The position numbers were made by a program, and so were the translations under genes. Below, piece by piece: positions 1 through 45,123 of a DNA stretch of 45,123 nt. Under the pieces are notes generated by a model. The model saw nothing but the letters and a program-made list of their open reading frames with translations. It was not told the origin of the DNA and ran no database searches. Numbering within the stretch: the first letter of the stretch is position 1; the number at the start of each line of letters is the position of its first letter. Source of the DNA: a virus; UHGV virus genome UHGV-1374414; one strand, 5' to 3'.

Positions 1-2153
1 AGCACGCCGCGCTCGACCATATCGTCGATTGCCTTCGTCGATGTGCCGCCTTTCGCAAGTCCAGCCTGGCGGACAATTGCCGATTTACTGAATCCGGTAT
101 GGTCCGGGTTATCTTCCATCAGTTTTTCCAGCGCCGCATAAAGCACTTTCTCTTTTTCGTTGCGCGGTCCTGCGGCGTTCTCCTCCTTAACTGCGGCTTT
201 GCCAGCGGCCTTCGCCTGTTCGATGGCGAACGGTGCCAGGGCGACCGGTACGAGGTAAAGAGTCTCGTCGCGTGGCGTGGATGCGATCGGCTTGACGTCC
301 CAACCGGCAACGACGTCACCGAAGTCTGGCCCGGTGCTGGTGGACTGGTGTGCTTCGAACGCTTCGGACTTGCGGAGATCAACCTTAACCTTGCACTTGA
401 GCAGGACGAAGCCGCGCGGCGCTTGCTTGATGCCGTTACGTGATTTTTCGTGATACAGGTTGAGTTGACCTGGCTGGTTGTCGTCCGGCTGTTCCAGGAA
501 GAACGCAGAATCGACAGCACCATGAAGCGCGCCGGACCCGCGTGGCGTTCTGCTGCCGTTTGCACCTTTCGCCGGGTGGTGGATGACGCCCGCACTGCCA
601 CCTGTATTTTCCGCAATGGCCTTCAGCGCCTTGACCACTTCGCCCATATCGCTGGCGTTGTTCTCGTCGAACGGTTTAGCATCGGCGGACCGCAACGCTA
701 CAGTCTGGTTGAGTGAGTCGAACGCCACCAGGCCAACCGGTTCGCCGTTAGCGGTGCGGTTGATGAAGCTGATAACTTCACGCAGTCCTGATTTGCTGGT
801 GATATCCCAGCCGCGTGATTGCAGATCGATAATGTGCAGCTTGTCCAGGTCGTGCTCGTATTTAATCTGCAATGCTTCCTTACGCTGGTTGGAGGCTTCA
901 CCACCTTCCGCGTCGAAATAGAAACAATGAGACTGGACGACCTTCGCACCGCCGAACGGAATACCCGCGGCAACCGCGCCCATTTGCCCCAGCACGTAGA
1001 ACGATTTGCCGATGTTAGACTCGCCAGCCATATACCAGGTCGATTTGAAGTTAATCAGCCCTTCGATGATCGGGTCGTGCTTACTGAACAGTGCGACCGG
1101 TTCGTTATCCAGGTCAGCGTCGGTACATACGCCGTACTCGTCGCCGTCTCCGACCGCATCAACAATATGATCATATAGGGACTCGACTTCCTCGTCGTCC
1201 AGTCCGGGGAGGATGGCGGCGATTTGCTTGCGTGACATGTTGTGCGGTTCGACGTTCAGGTGGTCCGGGATCCCGATAAGACGCAGCGCCAGGTGCTGGT
1301 GTCTGTTCAGTTCCGAGCAACACTCGTTGCCGGTGTGCATACACTTGAAACGGATCTCGCCATCCTTAACCATGATAGCCGTCGACCCTTCACCACTGTG
1401 CAGGTGTTCGTTCGGGCACGGCACTTCATAACCACGACCGGACGACAGCGGTTCGAATCCTGCCTGGAAGCACCAATCCAGAATGCCGTCCGCCACGCCG
1501 TCATCGCCCTGGGTCAGTTCGCGGCGTACTTCCTCTTTTTCCACTCCCAGCTTATCAGCCAGGCGAAGCAGACGACGGACGCGGGCACGTTTGCCGTAGT
1601 GACACTTAACAACCGATTGCTGGTGAGGCAGGTACATAAGGCGGTTTGTGTCTTTTGTACAATCATCGAAGTCCACATCTGACAGGCCCAGTTGGTGTAA
1701 TAGTGCATACTGGACGCGGCCCAGGTCTTCAGCCGGTACAGGCTTGTCAGTGAGCACCAGGAAACGGGCGCAACGCGTGCCGCCCTTCAGCGGGTGGCGG
1801 TCGCCGGTGGTGGTGTGAAATACGTGTTCCAGACCCGCGTCAATGAACGCCTTACGGCAGCGGCGCAGGGTGCGGGTGTCGGTGCGGTCAATATCAAAGA
1901 ACAGGATCGAGCGGTCCACCGCACTGGTCTTACGACGCAATCCGTCACTGGTATACGCCACGATGCCATCGGCCTTACGCTTGCGGCGCGCATACTCGGC
2001 TTTATCTTCCGTCTTGTTGATATGCACCGAGGAGATTTCTTTCGCATCTTTGATAAATTCGAAAAACTCATCGGTCGTCATCTGGAAGTTTTCCGCCCTG
2101 GCTTTTTCGCCTTTTTTAGCGGGTTTTGTTACAGCGAATTTAATCAAGCTCAT
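1..2153 (-). CDS. replicative primase/helicase (primase-polymerase-like N-terminal domain + P-loop helicase); 5' portion, ORF runs off left edge
   Basis: Stop-free minus-strand frame from ATG 2153-2151 (MSLIKFAVTKPAKK...) to position 1; absent from ORF track because no stop in window. Walker A GESNIGKS near 1002-1025; DxD-like ILFFDIDRTD and Cys/His cluster in N-terminal half. Confidence 0.75.
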   Translation of the reverse strand, partial: MSLIKFAVTKPAKKGEKARAENFQMTTDEFFEFIKDAKEISSVHINKTEDKAEYARRKRKADGIVAYTSDGLRRKTSAVDRSILFFDIDRTDTRTLRRCRKAFIDAGLEHVFHTTTGDRHPLKGGTRCARFLVLTDKPVPAEDLGRVQYALLHQLGLSDVDFDDCTKDTNRLMYLPHQQSVVKCHYGKRARVRRLLRLADKLGVEKEEVRRELTQGDDGVADGILDWCFQAGFEPLSSGRGYEVPCPNEHLHSGEGSTAIMVKDGEIRFKCMHTGNECCSELNRHQHLALRLIGIPDHLNVEPHNMSRKQIAAILPGLDDEEVESLYDHIVDAVGDGDEYGVCTDADLDNEPVALFSKHDPIIEGLINFKSTWYMAGESNIGKSFYVLGQMGAVAAGIPFGGAKVVQSHCFYFDAEGGEASNQRKEALQIKYEHDLDKLHIIDLQSRGWDITSKSGLREVISFINRTANGEPVGLVAFDSLNQTVALRSADAKPFDENNASDMGEVVKALKAIAENTGGSAGVIHHPAKGANGSRTPRGSGALHGAVDSAFFLEQPDDNQPGQLNLYHEKSRNGIKQAPRGFVLLKCKVKVDLRKSEAFEAHQSTSTGPDFGDVVAGWDVKPIASTPRDETLYLVPVALAPFAIEQAKAAGKAAVKEENAAGPRNEKEKVLYAALEKLMEDNPDHTGFSKSAIVRQAGLAKGGTSTKAIDDMVERGV

Positions 2154-2163
2154 TGCCGTGGCC

Positions 2164-2493
2164 TTACTTAGAAGTTTTATTATTGCGTACCCAGGAGCGC
2201 ACTGTGCTCTGATTAATTCCGGTCAACTCGGCAATCATCGCCCATGATTTACCCTCGGCGCGCAAACGGATAACCTGCTTTTTGTATTCTTCCATTTCTT
2301 CATTGTGTTTTTGCAGCTTGCTTGCTGCGGTACCGTTGAGTAGTTCCAGCCTGGCGCGCAATTCTTTTTCGGTAAGCCGTAGTCGTTCGATTTCGAATAA
2401 CACCGCCCCCACGGCATCTGTATAAGCCCATGACCGGCTTGTCTCACTGCAAACAGTCTTCGTTAACATTTCGATTGCGTCGTTTACATTCAT
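2164..2493 (-). CDS. helix-turn-helix DNA-binding protein (possible regulator)
   Basis: 109-aa ORF; C-terminal GKSWAMIAELTGINQSTVRSWVRN is a classic HTH; N-terminal coiled-coil; SD GAGGGA upstream; directly upstream of primase gene. Confidence 0.7.
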   Translation of the reverse strand: MNVNDAIEMLTKTVCSETSRSWAYTDAVGAVLFEIERLRLTEKELRARLELLNGTAASKLQKHNEEMEEYKKQVIRLRAEGKSWAMIAELTGINQSTVRSWVRNNKTSK

Positions 2494-2507
2494 TGCTCTT
2501 CCCTCAG

Positions 2508-2524
2508 TTGGTTAATGACCAACG
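2508..2524. promoter_or_regulatory. palindromic operator-like site GTTGGT-N5-ACCAAC
   Basis: Perfect 6-bp inverted arms around taatg, in the leader of the minus-strand promoter. Confidence 0.4.
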
Positions 2525-2553: not shown

Positions 2554-2623
2554 ATCCTTTGGTTATTGAAACGGGCGCGCACGCGTGTAATAATAATTCC
2601 CGTCTCATTGTCTCTTATTGGTT

Positions 2624-2657
2624 AGCGCCGTCGCATTTTGCCTCGGCGCTTTTTTTT
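2624..2657 (+). terminator. intrinsic terminator with no upstream plus-strand gene (orphan)
   Basis: agcgccg-loop-cggcgct stem followed by T8 run. Confidence 0.6.
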
Positions 2658-5332: not shown

Positions 5333-5567
5333 AGTATTCGCAATCTTATTGATGTTTTTGCTAGGCGCGCTGGTCTTTGGCCTGTATTGCGTGCAAGGCG
5401 TGTTAGCGGTGGCATGGATTATTCGCCACCCTAGCCAATGGGAGGACGACGGCTACAACAAAGGTGTTCCGGACTGGATGGCGAATAATGGCGACCGCCC
5501 GCCGTTAAGCTGGATCAATAACGCCGCCAACTACGTGAACAGAAATCTTTTTAATAAAAACGCTTGA
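5325..5567 (+). CDS. small membrane protein
   Basis: 80 aa; hydrophobic N-terminus VFAILLMFLLGALVFGLYCV; start overlaps nuclease stop. Confidence 0.5.
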   Translation: MNKVFAILLMFLLGALVFGLYCVQGVLAVAWIIRHPSQWEDDGYNKGVPDWMANNGDRPPLSWINNAANYVNRNLFNKNA

Positions 5568-5592
5568 CCGCTCAGGCGCAACCAAGTAGATT
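5564..5592 (+). promoter_or_regulatory. sigma70-like promoter (TTGACC-17-TAGATT) with GCAACCAAG motif in spacer
   Basis: -35 at 5564-5569, -10 at 5587-5592; direct repeats GCAACCAAG at 5578-5586 and 5594-5602. Confidence 0.5.
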
Positions 5593-9615: not shown

Positions 9616-9890
9616 CACCGGAAGGCAAGATTCAAAGTCACCTGATGAAACGGGTGAAAGAGGTCGGCGGATTCTGCCGCAAACTGGCATGGGAGGGGCG
9701 CGCAGGTGCGCCCGACCTGATTATTATCATCAACGGCAAAATAGTGTTCGTCGAAGTGAAGCGCCCCGGAGGAAAACCGAAGCCGCACCAGGTACGTGAA
9801 CATGAGCGAATGGCCCGCCGCGGTGCTGACGTTCGCGTTATCGACAACATATCCGACTGCGATTTATTGGTTGCTGAATTGGTCGCATAG
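9612..9890 (+). CDS. VRR-NUC domain nuclease
   Basis: ATG overlaps HNH stop (ATGA); GAPDLIIIINGKIVFVEVKRPGGKPKPHQ fits VRR-NUC PD-(D/E)XK core. Confidence 0.75.
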   Translation: MTPEGKIQSHLMKRVKEVGGFCRKLAWEGRAGAPDLIIIINGKIVFVEVKRPGGKPKPHQVREHERMARRGADVRVIDNISDCDLLVAELVA

Positions 9891-14024: not shown

Positions 14025-14491
14025 AATTACTGATTTGCGATTTGGATGGCGTTATTAACGGTTCAAGCGATGCGCGTGCCGACCTGGTTCCGGGTATAAA
14101 AACGAAATCAACCTTCTGGGCAAAGTGGCACAAAGCGCACGTACGCGAAGACCTGAACATGGATATGCTGCCGCTGTTGCGCATGTACAAAGAGCAAGGC
14201 TTCGAGATCGCGTATCTGACCAACCGGCAGCGAGAATGCTGGGACACGACCGCCGAACAACTGGAGGTCTTCCCGGTGGGCCGGTTGTTTATGCGCCATA
14301 TGCAGGACGACACCCCGCCGCCAGAGTTTAAGGCGTGCGCCGTGTTCAAAATGGTTTGCTATGCGGACGTATCGGAACTGGTCATCATTGAAGACTGTCC
14401 GAAGAACATCGCGGCAATTCGTCGGGCGTGTAGCGATCTGGTCCCGAAAATTTACGCAATAAATGTTGCAAAATTTACTTGCAACCAATAG
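14021..14491 (+). CDS. HAD-superfamily phosphatase (nucleotidase / polynucleotide 3'-phosphatase-like)
   Basis: 156 aa; HAD motif I LLICDLDGVI, motif II YLTNR, acidic motif IIEDCP. Confidence 0.55.
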   Translation: MKLLICDLDGVINGSSDARADLVPGIKTKSTFWAKWHKAHVREDLNMDMLPLLRMYKEQGFEIAYLTNRQRECWDTTAEQLEVFPVGRLFMRHMQDDTPPPEFKACAVFKMVCYADVSELVIIEDCPKNIAAIRRACSDLVPKIYAINVAKFTCNQ

Positions 14492-27744: not shown

Positions 27745-27918
27745 TTATGCAGTCTCAGACGAGGGGGACCATTGACCCCCGTCTAGTCTGAAAGACTGGG
27801 GTTTGTCCCGCCTGTCCCGATCGGCTAAAAACCGCGGCAGCACTGGCTGGGGCGGGGTGCTGTCCCGCTTTGTCCCGCCCATTGTTTGTCCCGCTTTCTG
27901 TCCCGCTTACTTTATGCA
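27745..27918. repeat. composite repeat element copy 1: GC-rich hairpins followed by array of TGTCCCGC iterons, bounded by TTATGCA motifs
   Basis: Hairpin cagacgaggggg/cccccgtctag 27756-27786; six TGTCCCG(C) direct repeats (27794, 27803, 27861, 27871, 27886, 27898); about 85 percent identical to 44690-44873. Confidence 0.8.
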
Positions 27919-27929
27919 CGAAATCCGAA

Positions 27930-28062
27930 TAGGTATGCACATTTACAGGGCGGGACAAAACGGGACGTCCCGCTTGTCCCGTTTTGAGTTTATGCAGTGG
28001 AAGTGAGTAGGTATGCAGTTTTGCAGGTGCGGGACAAAACGGGACGTCCCGCTTGTCCCGCT
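27930..28062. repeat. two tandem ~80-bp units each containing a 33-bp palindromic core GCGGGACAAAACGGGACGTCCCGCTTGTCCCG
   Basis: Cores at 27949-27981 and 28028-28060 with perfect 12-bp palindrome CGGGACGTCCCG; each preceded by GTATGCA. Confidence 0.8.
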
Positions 28063-28742
28063 TCACTGTGCGGGGTTCTGCTGCGCCATCTCATCAAGCG
28101 CAATTCGTTCCATTAGCTTGATATCTTTAAACGCGCGCTGCTCGTTTTCGATACCGTGCATCTTAAATAACCACTCCAGCACGCCGTAGTCGATGCCGTA
28201 TGCGCCACCAAATCCGGTGCGCCATTGCGTTGAGCAATCTGTGAAGACTGCGACTACCTTCGCGTTGTCGGGCCATAGCGCAACAGGCGGACAAACATCT
28301 TCGGGGGCCGCGCCCCATAAACTTGCGGCTAAATCTTCGGAGGGTGGCGGCGGGCCATAAAAGCGTCGCGCCGCCTCAATTAGTTTTTTTCACGCAATCC
28401 CATCAGTTCGAGATAGTACGACGTGTGGAACACACCGAACGCGCGTGGGTAGTTGACCACCAGGCGGCGGACGTTCTCCGCGTTGAATTCGTCTGGCAGA
28501 TTCCAGCCTTCTGCGACGTGCATGATGGCCTCGACCATAACGTTAAAGCCGTCCGGGTCATTGTCGTCATATTCCGACAGCTTGCGTTCAGTGTCCTGCA
28601 TGGTCTGCGAAAATTCGTCGATCGGGCGGTGGCGTACGGTAAACGTCATTTTGCCGGGTTCGGTCTCACCAGGGCGCGGGATCTCAATCGGCAGCTTAAA
28701 GGTTGGTTTAGGGTCAAGTGTGAAGAGTGGTGCTTTAGCCAT
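28063..28742 (-). CDS. tail assembly chaperone G-T fusion made by programmed -1 ribosomal frameshift
   Basis: G frame ends at A7 run (mRNA G AAA AAA AC UAA); -1 frame then stays open about 105 codons to TGA at 28063-28065. Confidence 0.6.
28380..28742 (-). CDS. tail assembly chaperone (lambda G-like)
   Basis: ATG 28742 with GGAGA SD (ORF-track start 28757 is TTG); 120 aa; between major tail and tape measure genes. Confidence 0.7.
   Translation of the reverse strand: MAKAPLFTLDPKPTFKLPIEIPRPGETEPGKMTFTVRHRPIDEFSQTMQDTERKLSEYDDNDPDGFNVMVEAIMHVAEGWNLPDEFNAENVRRLVVNYPRAFGVFHTSYYLELMGLREKN
28383..28389 (-). other. -1 frameshift slippery heptamer A_AAA_AAC
   Basis: Seven consecutive A on minus strand (plus-strand T7 at 28384-28390) two codons before G stop. 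Confidence 0.55.
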
Positions 28743-33624: not shown

Positions 33625-33653
33625 TTGCAATCCGCGTATTGGTTGCATATATT
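33625..33653 (+). promoter_or_regulatory. sigma70-like promoter TTGCAA-17-TATATT with tandem ATTGGTTGCA motifs
   Basis: Motif copies at 33638-33648 and 33651-33661; 25-nt stretch 33650-33674 identical to minus-strand 44510-44486. Confidence 0.5.
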
Positions 33654-33681
33654 GGTTGCACACCAACATGAGGATATGACA

Positions 33682-34194
33682 ATGATTAAAGTTAACTATG
33701 CCGATCTTAAAGCCGCTATGATGTGCGCCGCAACTAATGACGTGCGGTACTATCTGAATGGTGTATTTTTCGACGAGAAAGGATTCATCGTGGCCACCGA
33801 CGGTCATCGTTTGTTCTGCGGGTCCGCGGTTGTTCCCGGAGGTGAAAGTAAAATAGTAGCAATTAAAGGCCGCTTACCTACAAAATTCGAATACTGCAAC
33901 ATAGACGGCACATCCGCTGCGTTCTTTGATAGTAAAGACGTATTAATCGGTACCATACCCGTAGAGATCATAGACGGCAGATTCCCAGACTGGCGTCGTG
34001 TTACGTCTTTCGACAGCGCTAAAGTGGAGGCTATAGGGTTTGCCGGGGTATACCTGTCCGACGCCTGCAAAATTGCTAAATTGTTCGACCGTAAGTTTGA
34101 TAGCTTAAAACTGGAATTTCAGGGAGTAGACAAGGCGACACGTGTGCTGTTCAAAGGCGGTGCCTTCCTTGTTATCATGCCGATGCGTTTGTAG
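33682..34194 (+). CDS. truncated beta sliding clamp (DnaN)-like protein
   Basis: 170 aa; SD GAGGA 7 nt upstream; NDVRYYLNG, VATDGHRL, DGRFPDWRRV and C-terminal VIMPMRL match remembered E. coli DnaN domain II/III (QDVRYYLNG, ATDGHRLA, DGRFPDYRRV, VVMPMRL). Confidence 0.75.
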   Translation: MIKVNYADLKAAMMCAATNDVRYYLNGVFFDEKGFIVATDGHRLFCGSAVVPGGESKIVAIKGRLPTKFEYCNIDGTSAAFFDSKDVLIGTIPVEIIDGRFPDWRRVTSFDSAKVEAIGFAGVYLSDACKIAKLFDRKFDSLKLEFQGVDKATRVLFKGGAFLVIMPMRL

Positions 34195-44186: not shown

Positions 44187-44477
44187 CTATTTCGCAAGCT
44201 GGGAGAATAGTTCGCGCTGGGCTTTAATCCGGGCGACGTTAGTCACTGCCGTTTCGCCGATACCGAAGCGATACGCCAGGCGTTCACGGGCAAATGCCAG
44301 CGCGTAAGCCCTGATAGCCGCGCGCAACGGCTCGGGGTCTTCCATGCCCGCGGTCGCATCCATGATCGCAAACCAGGTCGGAGCTACCAGGCGCTCCCAC
44401 GGTGCTCTGCCGTGGGTATATCTCACTTCGACCGGTTTTGCCACCGCCATTGTGTAATTCCAGATTAACGCTCTCAT
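44187..44477 (-). CDS. hypothetical protein (first gene of minus-strand operon after control region)
   Basis: 96 aa; SD GAGGA 9 nt upstream; leader identical to that of DnaN-like gene. Confidence 0.55.
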   Translation of the reverse strand: MRALIWNYTMAVAKPVEVRYTHGRAPWERLVAPTWFAIMDATAGMEDPEPLRAAIRAYALAFARERLAYRFGIGETAVTNVARIKAQRELFSQLAK

Positions 44478-44505
44478 TGTTCAGTCCTCATGTTGGTGTG
44501 CAACC

Positions 44506-44534
44506 AATATAGCAGGGTGCCAGGGCGGATGCAA
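44506..44534 (-). promoter_or_regulatory. sigma70-like promoter TTGCAT-17-TATATT (minus strand) from two ATATTGGTTGCA repeats
   Basis: Minus-strand -35 = plus 44529-44534, -10 = plus 44506-44511. Confidence 0.5.
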
Positions 44535-44611
44535 CCAATATTAATCACGCGCATGAAAAAGTTGATCGCTATCTGCTGTGACTGCAAACTGCGTTTTTCA
44601 CTCCGCATAAT

Positions 44612-44630
44612 GCAACCTGCATTGGTTGCC
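44612..44630. promoter_or_regulatory. inverted repeat GCAACC-tgcatt-GGTTGC (motif-derived operator-like site)
   Basis: Perfect 6-bp arms; overlaps ATTGGTTGCC at 44621-44630. Confidence 0.35.
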
Positions 44631-44689
44631 TAGTTCACCGGCGACCGCACTTCGCATCATGCTGCCGTGTATTTTGCAATCCCCGGATT

Positions 44690-44873
44690 TTATTCAGTCT
44701 CAGACGAGGGGGGCCACTGACCCCCGTCTAGTCTGAAAGACTGGGGTGCTGTCCCGCTGTCCCGCTCCTCTGGAAGCCGCGCCATCCGGGGCGGGACTGG
44801 GGTGCTGTCCCGCTTTGTCCCGCCCCTTGTTTGTCCCGCTTTTTGTCCCGCTTACTTTATGCAATAAAACTGC
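44690..44873. repeat. composite repeat element copy 2 (hairpins + TGTCCCGC iteron array), near primase gene 3' end
   Basis: About 85 percent identical to 27745-27918 in same orientation; five to six TGTCCCGC iterons; AT-rich tract follows. Confidence 0.8.
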
Positions 44874-44900
44874 ATAACTATTCACTATATCTACACTACA

Positions 44901-45002
44901 CGGCAACCAATGCGACCAGCTAAAAACACTCAATCCGGCAACCAATGCTCGCACAAATTAATCGTTTAGCGATATGGGGATTCCCATATCGGCAACCAAT
45001 GC
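44901..45002. repeat. three direct repeats of CGGCAACCAATGC plus a 20-bp palindrome
   Basis: Repeats at 44901-44913, 44936-44948, 44990-45002; palindrome GATATGGGGATTCCCATATC at 44971-44990. Confidence 0.7.
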
Positions 45003-45014
45003 GCGCAGAATTTA

Positions 45015-45123
45015 ATCTTTTAAATCATCATCGGTCGCCGAAAGCGTGATGGGTATATTCGTTTTAATGACGATATTCGACGACCCATAGATGGCCCCGG
45101 TATGCGGATCGGTATAAAAACCG
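45015..45123 (-). CDS. 3' end of the same primase/helicase gene if the sequence is circular (stop TAA at 45012-45014)
   Basis: Minus-strand frame open from right edge to TAA. The 2 leftover nt at positions 2-1 plus 1 nt at 45123 make an in-frame CTC codon, giving ...DMVERGV-L-GFYTDPHTGAIYGSSNIVIK...DDDLKD*. Confidence 0.55.

What the first reader, a model, noticed from the sequence alone, without database searches (positions are those of the whole stretch)
44880..45012. Operator-like array: three CGGCAACCAATGC repeats plus a 20-bp palindrome between primase gene end and the minus-strand promoter
Three direct copies of a 13-mer containing the global motif are spaced 35 and 54 bp apart, and GATATGGGGATTCCCATATC sits between copies two and three. 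Multiple spaced operators next to a promoter resemble repressor/activator arrays; the palindrome could also be a terminator-like hairpin after the primase gene.
Basis: seen in the sequence. Interest (0 to 1): 0.55.

Follow-up and report, generated by a model that had tools for sequence, protein, structure and literature searches.

The report
Protein-binding repeats flanking a phage origin
The three repeats are real, conserved docking sites for a phage DNA-binding protein at the edge of the probable replication origin just after the primase-helicase gene. The same short motif also sits on about eight promoters across the genome, while the third repeat and the palindrome are a recent, dispensable 54-bp duplication.

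Summary
CGGCAACCAATGC occurs exactly at 44901, 44936 and 44990. The "palindrome" has 8-9-bp arms around a 4-nt non-palindromic centre.

The window is a complete, circularly permuted Dhillonvirus genome (a virulent coliphage related to SO-1 and HK578). The array lies 10 bp after the stop codon of the minus-strand primase-helicase gene. It forms the edge of a conserved 530-bp non-coding region with an origin-like layout: repeats, a 30%-GC block, GCGGGACA iterons at 70-75% GC, a GC hairpin, then more motif copies on a promoter.

Across 15 relatives the innermost copy is invariant and the middle copy is present in 14. The stop-proximal copy and the palindrome occur in only 6, inside a 54-bp duplication of the gene's 3' end.

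The 9-bp core occurs 16 times in the window (0.6 expected), almost all non-coding. It is conserved at orthologous sites and overlaps the core elements of about eight promoters.

Relatives with primase-helicase identity down to 37-49% keep TTGG-NN-GC sites around the primase stop, with variable number, spacing and orientation.

The array is not a terminator, not a clear promoter and not coding. The protein that reads it is unresolved: either the 109-aa HTH protein of the same operon or the primase-helicase itself. This is a new member of a known kind, of moderate interest.

The parts
44901..44913 (-). Repeat copy 1, the innermost. It reads GCATTGGTTGCCG on the primase (minus) strand and directly abuts the AT-rich block.
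   Evidence: Exact match. The core and flanks G(C/T)ATTGGTTGCCG are present in 15/15 relatives.
44936..44948 (-). Repeat copy 2, the middle copy.
   Evidence: Exact match. Present in 14/15 relatives, mostly as GCATTGGTTGCCA. Two have a point change and L009 has it deleted.
44990..45002 (-). Repeat copy 3, 10 bp after the primase stop codon. It lies inside the lineage-specific 54-bp duplication.
   Evidence: Exact match. Present in only 6/15 relatives, two of them with a mutated core, GGTCGCC.
44971..44990 (.). Imperfect palindrome GATATGGG-GATT-CCCATATC (9-bp arms if 44970-44991 is taken).
   Evidence: Unique in the window. RNA hairpin of -16.6 kcal/mol, z = -2.0, no U tract. Absent from 9/15 relatives. 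Its centre flips AATC/GATT/AATT among carriers.
44970..45023 (-). 54-bp indel as placed by the alignment. It is a tandem duplication of the last primase codons, the stop and one repeat (33 nt; 44936-44968 versus 44990-45022, 88% identical), plus the 21-nt palindromic filler.
   Evidence: family D1; alignment A1 gap columns 11-64.
44855..44900 (.). AT-rich block (30-32% GC), a putative DNA-unwinding element. It contains the invariant TGAATAGTTATGCA and the inverted repeat TTATGCA-N7-TGCATAA (44857-44877).
   Evidence: Composition. Invariant columns in A1. GAATAGTTATGCA is also found next to the motif in Salmonella phage vB_SenTO17, and GAATAGGTATGCA in L026. Loop flip GTTTTAT/ATAAAAC in 5 versus 9 relatives.
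44750..44853 (-). GC-rich iteron block: six GCGGGACA copies on the minus strand plus inverted GGCGGGAC copies (70-75% GC).
   Evidence: The same module is duplicated at 27.80-28.06 kb, SO-1's 'region A'.
44690..44745 (.). Conserved GC-rich hairpin at the end of the module shared with region A.
   Evidence: -28.4 kcal/mol, z = -4.3. Stem conserved and loop variable in A1.
44619..44630 (+). Fourth 12-mer, GCATTGGTTGCC, inverted relative to the array and 282 bp from copy 1. With the array it brackets the AT-rich, iteron and hairpin core.
   Evidence: I2-I4. Conserved in all relatives at a constant 281-282 bp.
44500..44541 (-). Two further core copies (ATATTGGTTGCA) lying on the promoter of the downstream genes. 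One supplies the -35 TTGCAT (44534-44529) and the other overlaps the -10 TATATT (44511-44506). They are followed by the leader ACACCAACATGAGGA and the ATG at 44477.
   Evidence: The same leader and promoter cassette occurs at 33625-33690 and in vB_SenTO17.
45012..45123 (-). 3' end of the primase-helicase gene, which continues at 1-2153 across the window junction.
   Evidence: Intact 754-aa ORF across the junction. AAA_25 domain. The helicase core matches RSF1010 RepA best among solved helicases (TM 0.65-0.69). A helix-helix-helix-strand-strand unit is predicted at residues 666-737.
1..2153 (-). 5' part of the primase-helicase gene.
2164..2493 (-). 109-aa HTH protein, the first gene of the operon that ends at the array. 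It is the leading candidate reader of the motif.
   Evidence: HTH_23, HTH_28 and Sigma70_r4_2 all above cut-off. Confined to the genus and the 68% clade. The HTH half is conserved even when the N-terminal half is replaced.

Best explanation
The three 13-mers are sequence-specific binding sites for a phage-encoded DNA-binding protein. The conserved core is ATTGGTTGC, read on the primase strand.

They form the primase-proximal flank of a set of six such sites that bracket the phage's probable replication origin. The order is: primase stop, 1-3 sites, a 30%-GC unwinding block, GCGGGACA iterons, a GC hairpin, one inverted site, then two sites on the promoter of the downstream genes.

The same core acts as an operator on about eight other promoters. 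One protein could therefore couple early and middle transcription with events at the origin.

The most likely reader is the 109-aa HTH protein encoded at the head of the same operon. The primase-helicase itself is the alternative.

Occupancy of the array next to the AT-rich block is inferred to do one or both of two things: help assemble or open the origin complex, or stop read-through from the primase operon into the origin.

Only the innermost one or two sites are needed. The third copy and the palindrome arose by a recent 54-bp tandem duplication of the gene end and are dispensable.

Shown here: existence, conservation, non-coding status, the architecture, promoter overlap elsewhere, and the duplication.
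For: Real and non-random:
- Three exact copies.
- The core occurs 16 times against 0.59 expected.

Selection:
- Every intergenic copy is conserved at the orthologous place in SO-1, Bas85, LM40P1 and Teewinot, despite 73-85% identity in the flanks.
- 10 of 14 copies in SO-1 lie in the 6.5% of the genome that is non-coding (P about 1e-9).
- Constraint falls from copy 1 (15/15) to copy 2 (14/15) to copy 3 (6/15).

Non-coding:
- The open frame across the region shows substitutions of 40/32/27 by codon position.
- It carries stops or frameshifts in 5 relatives.

Operator behaviour elsewhere:
- The motif lies in the spacer of TTGACA-18-TATCAT (2668-2697), TTGACC-17-TAGATT (5564-5592) and TTGACT-18-CATACT (41089-41060).
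- It supplies the -35 in TTGCAT/TTGCTG-17-TATATT/TATAGT/AATACT at 9871, 12813, 17539 and 44534.

Origin-like context:
- A 30-32% GC trough lies between the array and a 70-75% GC iteron block.
- The 530 bp are non-coding in a genome that is 93.5% coding.
- The region is immediately 3' of a RepA(RSF1010)-like primase-helicase.
- Two inverted repeats in the region show loop-flip polymorphisms.
- SO-1's GenBank record already marks this stretch as repeat 'region B'.

Deep conservation of the layout:
- Clades with 68%, 48% and 43-46% primase identity keep TTGG-NN-GC sites at the primase stop and again on the downstream promoter, while the iterons change. The variants are TTGGTTGC, TTGGCAGC, TTGGCCGC and TTGGCTGC.
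- In 22 of 29 diverse loci one variant occurs at least twice within about 800 bp of the stop, and usually nowhere else.

Candidate reader:
- The HTH protein is in the same operon.
- Its HTH half is preserved across three allele classes and the 68% clade.
- Spread of the motif to many promoters coincides with presence of this protein: 3-5 copies outside the origin per 8.4-kb locus, against 0-2 in clades with a Cro-type regulator.
Against: - No binding, replication or transcript data exist for any Dhillonvirus in the searchable literature.
- Origin function is inferred from layout only. GC skew is confounded by transcription direction and there is no DnaA-box enrichment.
- The TTGG-NN-GC bracket also exists in clades that lack the 109-aa HTH protein and carry an unrelated Cro-type regulator instead. 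The HTH protein therefore cannot be the universal reader, and the primase-helicase is the only constant neighbour.
- Spacing of 35/54 bp here, and 16, 23/55 and 56/45 bp elsewhere, is not helically phased. Orientation also varies. This is unlike classical iterons.
- A weak promoter-like pair, TTGCCG-18-AATAGT, uses copy 1 as its -35 and its -10 is invariant in 15 relatives. A promoter role for copy 1 is not excluded.
Confidence: 0.5

Rival explanations
1. The repeats are origin sites read by the replication protein itself, not by a transcription factor. The reader would be the primase-helicase, through its C-terminal winged-helix-like domain or the zinc-binding module of the primase. They would serve as loading or initiation sites beside the unwinding element, as with P4 alpha at ori/crr or RSF1010 RepC/RepA at oriV. 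The promoter copies would be a secondary co-option specific to Dhillonviruses.
For: - The only gene that always accompanies the TTGG-NN-GC bracket is the primase-helicase.
- In Cro-type clades the motif is confined to this region, with 0 copies elsewhere in the locus.
- In many clades one copy is embedded in the last codons of the gene, E-L-V-A = GAA-TTG-GTT-GCx.
- The helicase core is RepA(RSF1010)-like.
- A C-terminal helix-helix-helix-strand-strand unit is predicted with pLDDT 70-83.
- The sites abut the AT-rich block.
Against: - The putative recognition helix of the C-terminal domain differs between clades that share TTGGTTGC (Dhillonvirus TSTKAIDDMVERG versus L028 NYKKVLEELVRRR). It appears to track the iteron family instead: GCGGGACA, TTGCGAGT or GGGGGAGA (few independent clades).
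- The motif's placement over the -35, spacer and -10 of about eight promoters is what a transcription factor would show.
- No fold or family match could be obtained for the C-terminal domain.
Confidence: 0.27
2. The array is purely transcriptional. It would be a cluster of operator sites where the bound regulator acts as a roadblock that ends the HTH/primase-helicase transcript, or controls entry into the downstream gene block. It would have no role in replication. Alternatively, copy 1 is the -35 of a weak, factor-dependent promoter.
For: - No intrinsic terminator lies between the primase gene and the next genes.
- All three sites are co-oriented with the operon.
- The same core is operator-like at other promoters.
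- TTGCCG-18-AATAGT has the geometry of the other motif-based promoters, and its -10 is invariant in 15 relatives.
Against: - Orientation and number of the sites vary between clades: inverted pairs in L026 and vB_SenTO17, and the opposite orientation in L029. A polar roadblock would not predict this.
- The hexamers are weak (3/6 and 4/6), and the motif-to-AATAGT spacing is not kept in vB_SenTO17 or L026.
- The adjacent AT-rich and iteron layout remains unexplained under this reading.
Confidence: 0.15
3. The palindrome is the intrinsic terminator of the primase-helicase gene, and the repeats are incidental.
For: It forms a 9-bp hairpin (-16.6 kcal/mol) 22 nt after the stop codon.
Against: - There is no U tract; the sequence after the stem is CUAAACGAUUAAUUU.
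- It was not called by the terminator scan.
- The z-score is only -2.0.
- It is absent from 9 of 15 close relatives, which keep the same gene order.
- The repeats are conserved independently of it.
Confidence: 0.04
4. The array has no function and is left over from slipped-strand duplication.
For: Copy 3 and the palindrome clearly arose by a 54-bp tandem duplication and vary in presence. Copy 3 is already mutated in two carriers.
Against: - Copies 1 and 2 are conserved far better than their spacer and flanks.
- The same core is conserved at many unlinked loci.
- The same position is occupied by related motifs in phages whose primase identity is below 50%.
Confidence: 0.04

Closest known systems
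Iteron-type origins next to their replication gene (phage lambda ori, satellite phage P4 ori/crr bound by the alpha primase-helicase, RSF1010 oriV with RepC/RepA)
   Same: - Short direct repeats lie beside an AT-rich block and a GC-rich stretch, immediately adjacent to the gene for the replication protein.
- The helicase core here is RSF1010 RepA-like.
- A second copy of the iteron module lies elsewhere in the genome (region A, 27.8 kb), recalling P4 ori/crr.
   Different: - The 13-mers are shorter than typical 17-22-bp iterons.
- Their spacing (35/54 bp) is not helically phased.
- Number and orientation vary between close relatives.
- The same core is scattered over promoters genome-wide.
- A separate repeat family (GCGGGACA) looks more like the classical iterons.
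- Nothing has been shown experimentally.
DnaA boxes (a 9-bp asymmetric site clustered at oriC beside the unwinding element and scattered in promoters, where DnaA acts as a transcription factor)
   Same: - A 9-bp asymmetric core.
- The densest cluster lies beside an AT-rich block next to replication genes.
- Single or paired copies overlap promoters elsewhere.
- This is the best analogy for how the system may work.
   Different: - The sequence is different; there is no enrichment of TTWTNCACA.
- This is an analogy only, not membership.
Stoperators of cluster A mycobacteriophages (L5 gp71: 13-bp asymmetric sites spread through the genome)
   Same: A roughly 13-bp asymmetric motif is repeated 15-20 times through a siphovirus genome, almost always in short intergenic gaps.
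   Different: - Dhillonviruses are virulent (PMC9022532), and no integrase or immunity repressor was seen in the annotations consulted.
- The sites overlap core promoter elements in both orientations and show no single orientation relative to transcription.
- The largest cluster is at an origin-like region.
T4 MotA boxes at middle promoters
   Same: In four promoters the motif replaces a canonical -35 (ATTGGTTGCAT, then 16-17 nt, then TATATT), like a factor-dependent promoter class.
   Different: - No MotA or AsiA homologues were identified.
- Other copies lie in the spacer or at +1 of strong TTGACA-type promoters, which suggests repression.
- The array copies lack a proper -10.

Membership tests
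Iteron-type replication origin | Several direct repeats of one sequence beside an AT-rich unwinding block | tested here: met
   Three direct 13-mers abut a 30-32% GC block (44855-44900), which is followed by a 70-75% GC repeat block.
Iteron-type replication origin | Regular, helically phased spacing and fixed number and orientation of repeats | tested here: not met
   Spacing is 35 and 54 bp. There are 1, 2 or 3 copies among close relatives. Orientation and spacing differ in L026 (16 bp, inverted), L029 (23/55) and L030 (56/45).
Iteron-type replication origin | Location next to the gene of the replication or initiator protein | tested here: met
   The array is 10 bp after the stop of the primase-helicase gene. 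This position is conserved in 22 of 29 diverse loci.
Iteron-type replication origin | Initiator binding and a mapped replication start | not testable with these tools
   No experimental data were found.
Operator array of a transcription factor | Sites overlap or adjoin core promoter elements | tested here: inconclusive
   Met for the same core at about eight other loci. For the array itself there is only a weak pair, TTGCCG-18-AATAGT (8/12). The standard scan found no promoter in 44300-45123.
Operator array of a transcription factor | Sequence conservation of sites above that of flanking non-coding DNA | tested here: met
Operator array of a transcription factor | A cognate DNA-binding protein that co-occurs and co-varies with the site | tested here: inconclusive
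   The HTH protein is present and its HTH half is conserved wherever the motif is genome-wide. Related sites also exist in clades without it.
Rho-independent terminator (the palindrome) | GC-rich stem-loop followed directly by a U tract | tested here: not met
   The 9-bp stem has no U tract and the scan made no call.
Stoperator system (L5-like) | Sites in one orientation relative to the direction of transcription | tested here: not met
   Orientations are mixed at promoters and within region B.
Known RNA family | Match to an Rfam covariance model | tested here: not met
   No match at gathering threshold anywhere in the window.

The most novel reading that the evidence does not exclude
A small phage HTH protein acts like a viral DnaA. 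It binds a cluster of ATTGGTTGC sites on both sides of the unwinding element and iteron core to license or position the RepA-like primase-helicase at the origin. Through the same 9-bp site it also switches about eight promoters, repressing strong TTGACA-type early promoters and substituting for the -35 at TTGCAT-type promoters. One protein would thereby couple the transcription programme of a virulent siphovirus to replication. The TTGG-NN-GC bracket around the primase stop, partly written into the enzyme's own last codons, would be an ancient feature shared with many Guernseyvirinae.
Probability: 0.2. Interest if true: 0.6.

Novelty: new member of a known kind. Interest (0 to 1): 0.4.

Why it matters
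Dhillonviruses are among the coliphages most often isolated and are used in reference collections and therapy candidates. I found no mapped origin, promoters or regulators for them in the searchable literature.

This analysis gives testable cis-element maps:
- a probable origin (region B), with a duplicated iteron module (region A);
- a genome-wide 9-bp regulatory motif with two promoter architectures;
- two candidate reader proteins.

Experiments should therefore target copies 1-2 and the inverted partner at 44619. If the dual origin-and-promoter role holds, it would be a compact example of coupling between replication and transcription in a virulent phage.

Tried and rejected
- **Rfam** scan of the whole window: nothing found.
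- **Standard promoter and terminator scan** of 44300-45123: nothing found.
- **DnaA boxes:** no enrichment and none in the region.
- **GC skew:** follows gene orientation, so it is uninformative for locating the origin.
- **Literature:**
  - Nothing on SO-1 regions A/B, Dhillonvirus origins or promoters, or the motif strings; the motif-string search returned no relevant paper among those listed.
  - The truncated GenBank note ('possible ...') could not be read in full.
- **Coding potential** of the 85-codon open frame that some annotators call across the array and iterons: rejected. There is no third-position bias, and relatives carry stops and frameshifts.
- **HTH protein homologues in Guernseyvirinae:** none. 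Their upstream regulators are unrelated Cro/CI-type proteins.
- **PDB hit 8vd6** to the HTH half: PMC12339374, a protein-design paper, is the plausible source and the chain is five near-identical idealised repeats, so I take it to be a de novo designed repeat protein and not informative.
- **BurrH/TALE-like hit** to the primase-helicase C-terminal domain: the total score is inflated by about 20 repeats, and each single match is marginal (i-E at least 1.2). It is kept only as a curiosity.
- **Pfam on the C-terminal domain:** nothing.
- **Single-sequence structure prediction of the C-terminal domain:** pLDDT 45, unusable, so no fold search was run on it.
- **Short-query homologue search:** only 2 hits.
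- **Packaging or terminus role:** unlikely. The genus uses headful packaging and its genomes assemble as circles (PMC9022532).

Full report
**1. What the window is**

A megablast of 43000-45123 hits 159 phage records, almost all Escherichia Dhillonvirus (relatives of SO-1 and HK578) at 80-95% identity.

The large minus-strand primase-helicase ORF (754 aa) is intact when the right end of the window is joined to the left end. The window is therefore a complete, circularly permuted genome. The gene starts at 2153, and its stop codon is at 45012-45014.

The genus is virulent and uses headful packaging (PMC9022532).

**2. Check of the observation**

- CGGCAACCAATGC occurs exactly at 44901, 44936 and 44990, with spacing of 35 and 54 bp.
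- A one-mismatch copy lies inverted at 44619.
- The palindrome at 44971-44990 has 8-bp arms around a non-palindromic 4-nt centre, or 9-bp arms with the flanking C/G. It is unique in the window.
- The 9-bp core GCAACCAAT occurs 16 times against 0.59 expected.

Only the description 'perfect 20-bp palindrome' and the implied adjacency to a promoter need qualification.

**3. Anatomy of the region, read on the primase (minus) strand**

In order after the primase stop:
1. GCATTGGTTGCCG three times.
2. An AT-rich block of 30-32% GC (44855-44900). It contains TGAATAGTTATGCA and the inverted repeat TTATGCA-N7-TGCATAA.
3. A 70-75% GC block with six GCGGGACA repeats plus inverted copies (44750-44853).
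4. A strongly structured GC hairpin (44690-44745; -28.4 kcal/mol, z = -4.3).
5. An inverted 12-mer, GGCAACCAATGC (44619-44630).
6. Two more core copies (44531, 44500) lying on the -35 TTGCAT and the -10 TATATT of a sigma70-like promoter.
7. The leader ACACCAACATGAGGA and the ATG at 44477.

SO-1's GenBank record annotates the equivalent 480 bp as a repeat_region: 'region B; direct, inverted and palindromic repeats; sequence similarity with region A'.

Region A corresponds to window 27.75-28.07 kb, between the tail chaperone genes and the tape-measure gene. It shares the GCGGGACA-plus-hairpin module but has no GCAACCAAT copy. The finding's repeats therefore lie just outside a duplicated module of about 170 bp.

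**4. Conservation within the genus**

In an alignment of 15 genomes:
- The innermost copy (44901) is present with an invariant core in all 15.
- The middle copy is present in 14, two of them with a point change.
- The stop-proximal copy and the palindrome occur in only 6.

Copy 3 and the palindrome lie in a 54-bp indel. It consists of a 33-nt duplicate of the last primase codons, the stop and one repeat (44936-44968 versus 44990-45022, 88% identical), plus a 21-nt palindromic filler.

In a search of 157 phage records, many hits covered the whole query in one piece, consistent with the three-copy form. Many others aligned with a gap or in two pieces, consistent with the two-copy form; this was not checked record by record.

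An 85-codon open frame that some annotators call here is not coding. Substitutions fall 40/32/27 on codon positions 1/2/3, and five relatives have stops or a frameshift.

**5. The motif genome-wide**

All intergenic copies are conserved at orthologous positions in SO-1, Bas85, LM40P1 and Teewinot, even where the 70-nt flanks on each side are only 73-85% identical. Each genome has 14-16 exact copies.

In SO-1, 10 of 14 copies are not inside a CDS, although only 6.5% of the genome is non-coding (P about 1e-9).

With relaxed hexamer criteria, nearly every site lies inside a sigma70-like promoter, in one of two arrangements.

*Strong -35 with the motif (GCAACCAAx orientation) in the spacer next to the -10, often with a second copy just after the -10:*
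- TTGACA-18-TATCAT at 2668-2697
- TTGACC-17-TAGATT at 5564-5592
- TTGACT-18-CATACT at 41089-41060

*The motif itself provides the -35 (ATTGGTTGCAT), with a -10 after 16-17 nt:*
- 9871
- 12813
- 17539
- 44534

At 14481 the motif forms a palindrome, TGCAACCAA-TAGG-TTGGTTGCA, inside TTGCAA-18-TATAGT.

This is what binding sites of a regulator look like. The array copies have no such context; they have only a weak TTGCCG-18-AATAGT pair (8/12).

The origin-region copies also share distinctive flanks (GC-core-C). These are found only in region B, in four copies.

**6. Distant relatives**

The primase-helicase family extends to a 68% clade, a 48-49% clade and the Guernseyvirinae at 43-46%.

| Relative | Primase identity | Sites around the primase stop | Rest of the region |
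|---|---|---|---|
| L026 | 68% | One AATTGGTTGCCAC inside the last codons; two inverted copies 16 bp apart just after the stop | GAATAGGTATGCA, GCGGGACA iterons, the same hairpin, and a motif-based promoter |
| vB_SenTO17 | 43% | A perfect 15-bp inverted repeat straddles the stop (ATTCGCAGCCAACAT / ATGTTGGCTGCGAAT) | GAATAGTTATGCA, GGGGGAGA iterons, then the motif again 3 nt upstream of TTGCAA-17-TAATAT with the same ACACCAACAgAGGA leader; both repeat families occur only in this region of that genome |
| L029 | 46% | Three direct GCTGCCAAC copies after the stop (spacing 23/55) | Two inverted copies further on |
| L030 | 48% | Three GTTGGCCGC copies | Three inverted copies, the last on a -35 |
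| L028 | 48% | Uses TTGGTTGC | (see calls) |

In an automatic survey, 22 of 29 diverse loci had one TTGG-NN-GC variant at least twice within about 800 bp of the primase stop, and usually nowhere else. Six loci had none. In the annotated-phage set, Tsm2 likewise has four TTCCGCACA copies instead.

The position beside the primase stop and the AT-rich block is therefore old. Number, spacing and orientation are plastic.

**7. Which protein reads the sites?**

*Candidate 1: the 109-aa protein at 2164-2493, the first gene of the same operon.*
- It matches HTH_23, HTH_28 and Sigma70_r4_2.
- Among annotated phages it is found only in the genus (155 records). Homologues also occur in the 68% clade.
- Its HTH half is kept even in CHD5UKE2, where the N-terminal half is replaced. 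That genome keeps the full motif set.
- Spread of the motif to many promoters coincides with presence of this protein.

*Candidate 2: the primase-helicase, the only constant neighbour of the bracket.*
- Its helicase core matches RSF1010 RepA best among solved helicases (TM 0.65-0.69).
- Its last roughly 90 residues are predicted as helix-helix-helix-strand-strand, which is winged-helix-like, with pLDDT 70-83.
- The domain has no family or fold assignment.
- Its putative recognition helix seems to track the iteron family rather than TTGG-NN-GC. This would assign the iterons to the primase-helicase and leave the 13-mers to another reader, but too few independent clades are available to be sure.

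The small regulators upstream of the primase in Guernseyvirinae are Cro/CI-type and unrelated to the 109-aa protein.

**8. Mechanism (inferred)**

The layout is a site cluster, an AT-rich block, GC-rich iterons, a hairpin, then an inverted site and a promoter. It lies next to a RepA-like primase-helicase. Two inverted repeats in it show loop-flip polymorphisms among relatives, a trace of hairpin-mediated template switching. All this fits a replication origin flanked by regulator sites.

Binding at the array would do one of two things:
- help build or open the origin complex;
- prevent read-through from the primase operon, since no intrinsic terminator is present.

The same protein bound on the downstream promoter and on about eight others would tie transcription to the same factor.

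The palindrome is not a canonical terminator: it has no U tract, z = -2.0, and it is absent from most relatives.

**9. Comparison and novelty**

- The closest functional analogies are iteron origins next to their replication gene (lambda, P4 ori/crr, RSF1010 oriV).
- For the dual use of one 9-bp site at an origin and in promoters, the closest analogy is DnaA boxes.
- The array fails the classical iteron criteria of regular phasing and fixed number.
- It fails the orientation rule of stoperators and the terminator definition.
- It is best filed as a new member of the broad class of protein-binding repeat arrays at phage origin and regulatory regions.
- The repeat region was already flagged in SO-1's 2009 GenBank record, but I found no published analysis.

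Interest is moderate, at 0.4.

Noticed in passing
window 27750-28070 and 44690-44870: A module of about 170 bp is duplicated 17 kb apart. It consists of TGCATAAAGTAA, GCGGGACA x4, a GC-rich stretch, GCGGGACA x2 and a conserved GC hairpin. One copy lies in a non-coding gap inside the tail gene block (SO-1 'region A'). The other lies after the primase-helicase gene ('region B'). 14 of the 16 GCGGGACA copies in the window lie in these two regions. The arrangement recalls P4 ori/crr or SPP1 oriL/oriR.
   Followed up: partly
window 44857-44877 and 44972-44989: Two inverted repeats show 'loop-flip' polymorphism among close relatives. TTATGCA[GTTTTAT or ATAAAAC]TGCATAA splits 5 versus 9 of 15. ATATGGG[AATC / GATT / AATT]CCCATAT also varies. 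In each case the centres are exact reverse complements, which is the signature of hairpin- or cruciform-mediated inversion.
   Followed up: partly
window 2566-2657 (+ strand): A promoter-like site, TTGAAA-17-AATAAT with an upstream TG (10/12), is followed about 30 nt downstream by a good intrinsic terminator. The terminator stem is GCGCCG...CGGCGC followed by U8 (-16.7 kcal/mol, z = -3.7). This could be a small RNA of about 55 nt, or an insulator. It lies just upstream of the rightward early promoter TTGACA-18-TATCAT, which carries the motif in its spacer.
   Followed up: partly
window 2506-2522: The palindrome GTTGGT-CATTA-ACCAAC is made of two TTGGT half-sites, the first half of the global motif. 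It lies in the leader just upstream of the HTH gene's ribosome-binding site. It is a possible autoregulatory operator.
   Followed up: no
window 33625-33690 and 44477-44541: Nearly identical cassettes of promoter, leader and ribosome-binding site (TATATTGGTTGCACACCAACATGAGGA) drive two units. One is the opposite-strand 'moron' gene at about 33694-34194 (weak DNA polymerase III beta-like Pfam match, strong PHROG match to RusA-like resolvase). The other is the gene block downstream of region B. The leader ACACCAACA-GAGGA is even kept in Salmonella phage vB_SenTO17.
   Followed up: partly
primase-helicase C-terminus (window 45015-45045; relatives L026, L028, L030, L043, L046-L051): The acidic tail D-(D/E)-D-L-x-D is conserved across all clades and recalls the acidic C-terminal tail of T7 gp4. 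In many clades a motif copy is written into the codons E-L-V-A (GAA TTG GTT GCx) 32-36 nt before the stop. The central dinucleotide of the motif changes together with the amino acid there: V (GTT) versus A (GCC).
   Followed up: partly
primase-helicase residues about 685-710 (encoded near window 130-210, minus strand): The segment GFSKSAIVRQAGLAKGGTSTKAI gives repeated weak matches to the 33-aa DNA-reading repeats of the TALE-like protein BurrH (PDB 4cja). Each single match is marginal (i-E at least 1.2). The similarity may be convergent or just a generic helix-turn-helix resemblance.
   Followed up: partly
L018 (Serratia phage Tsm2) 5288-5347: Instead of TTGG-NN-GC sites, this relative has four TTCCGCACA / TGTGCGGAA copies in alternating orientation directly after the primase stop, followed by an AT-rich stretch. 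Six further Guernseyvirinae-type loci (L053-L055, L057-L059) also lack the TTGG-NN-GC bracket.
   Followed up: no
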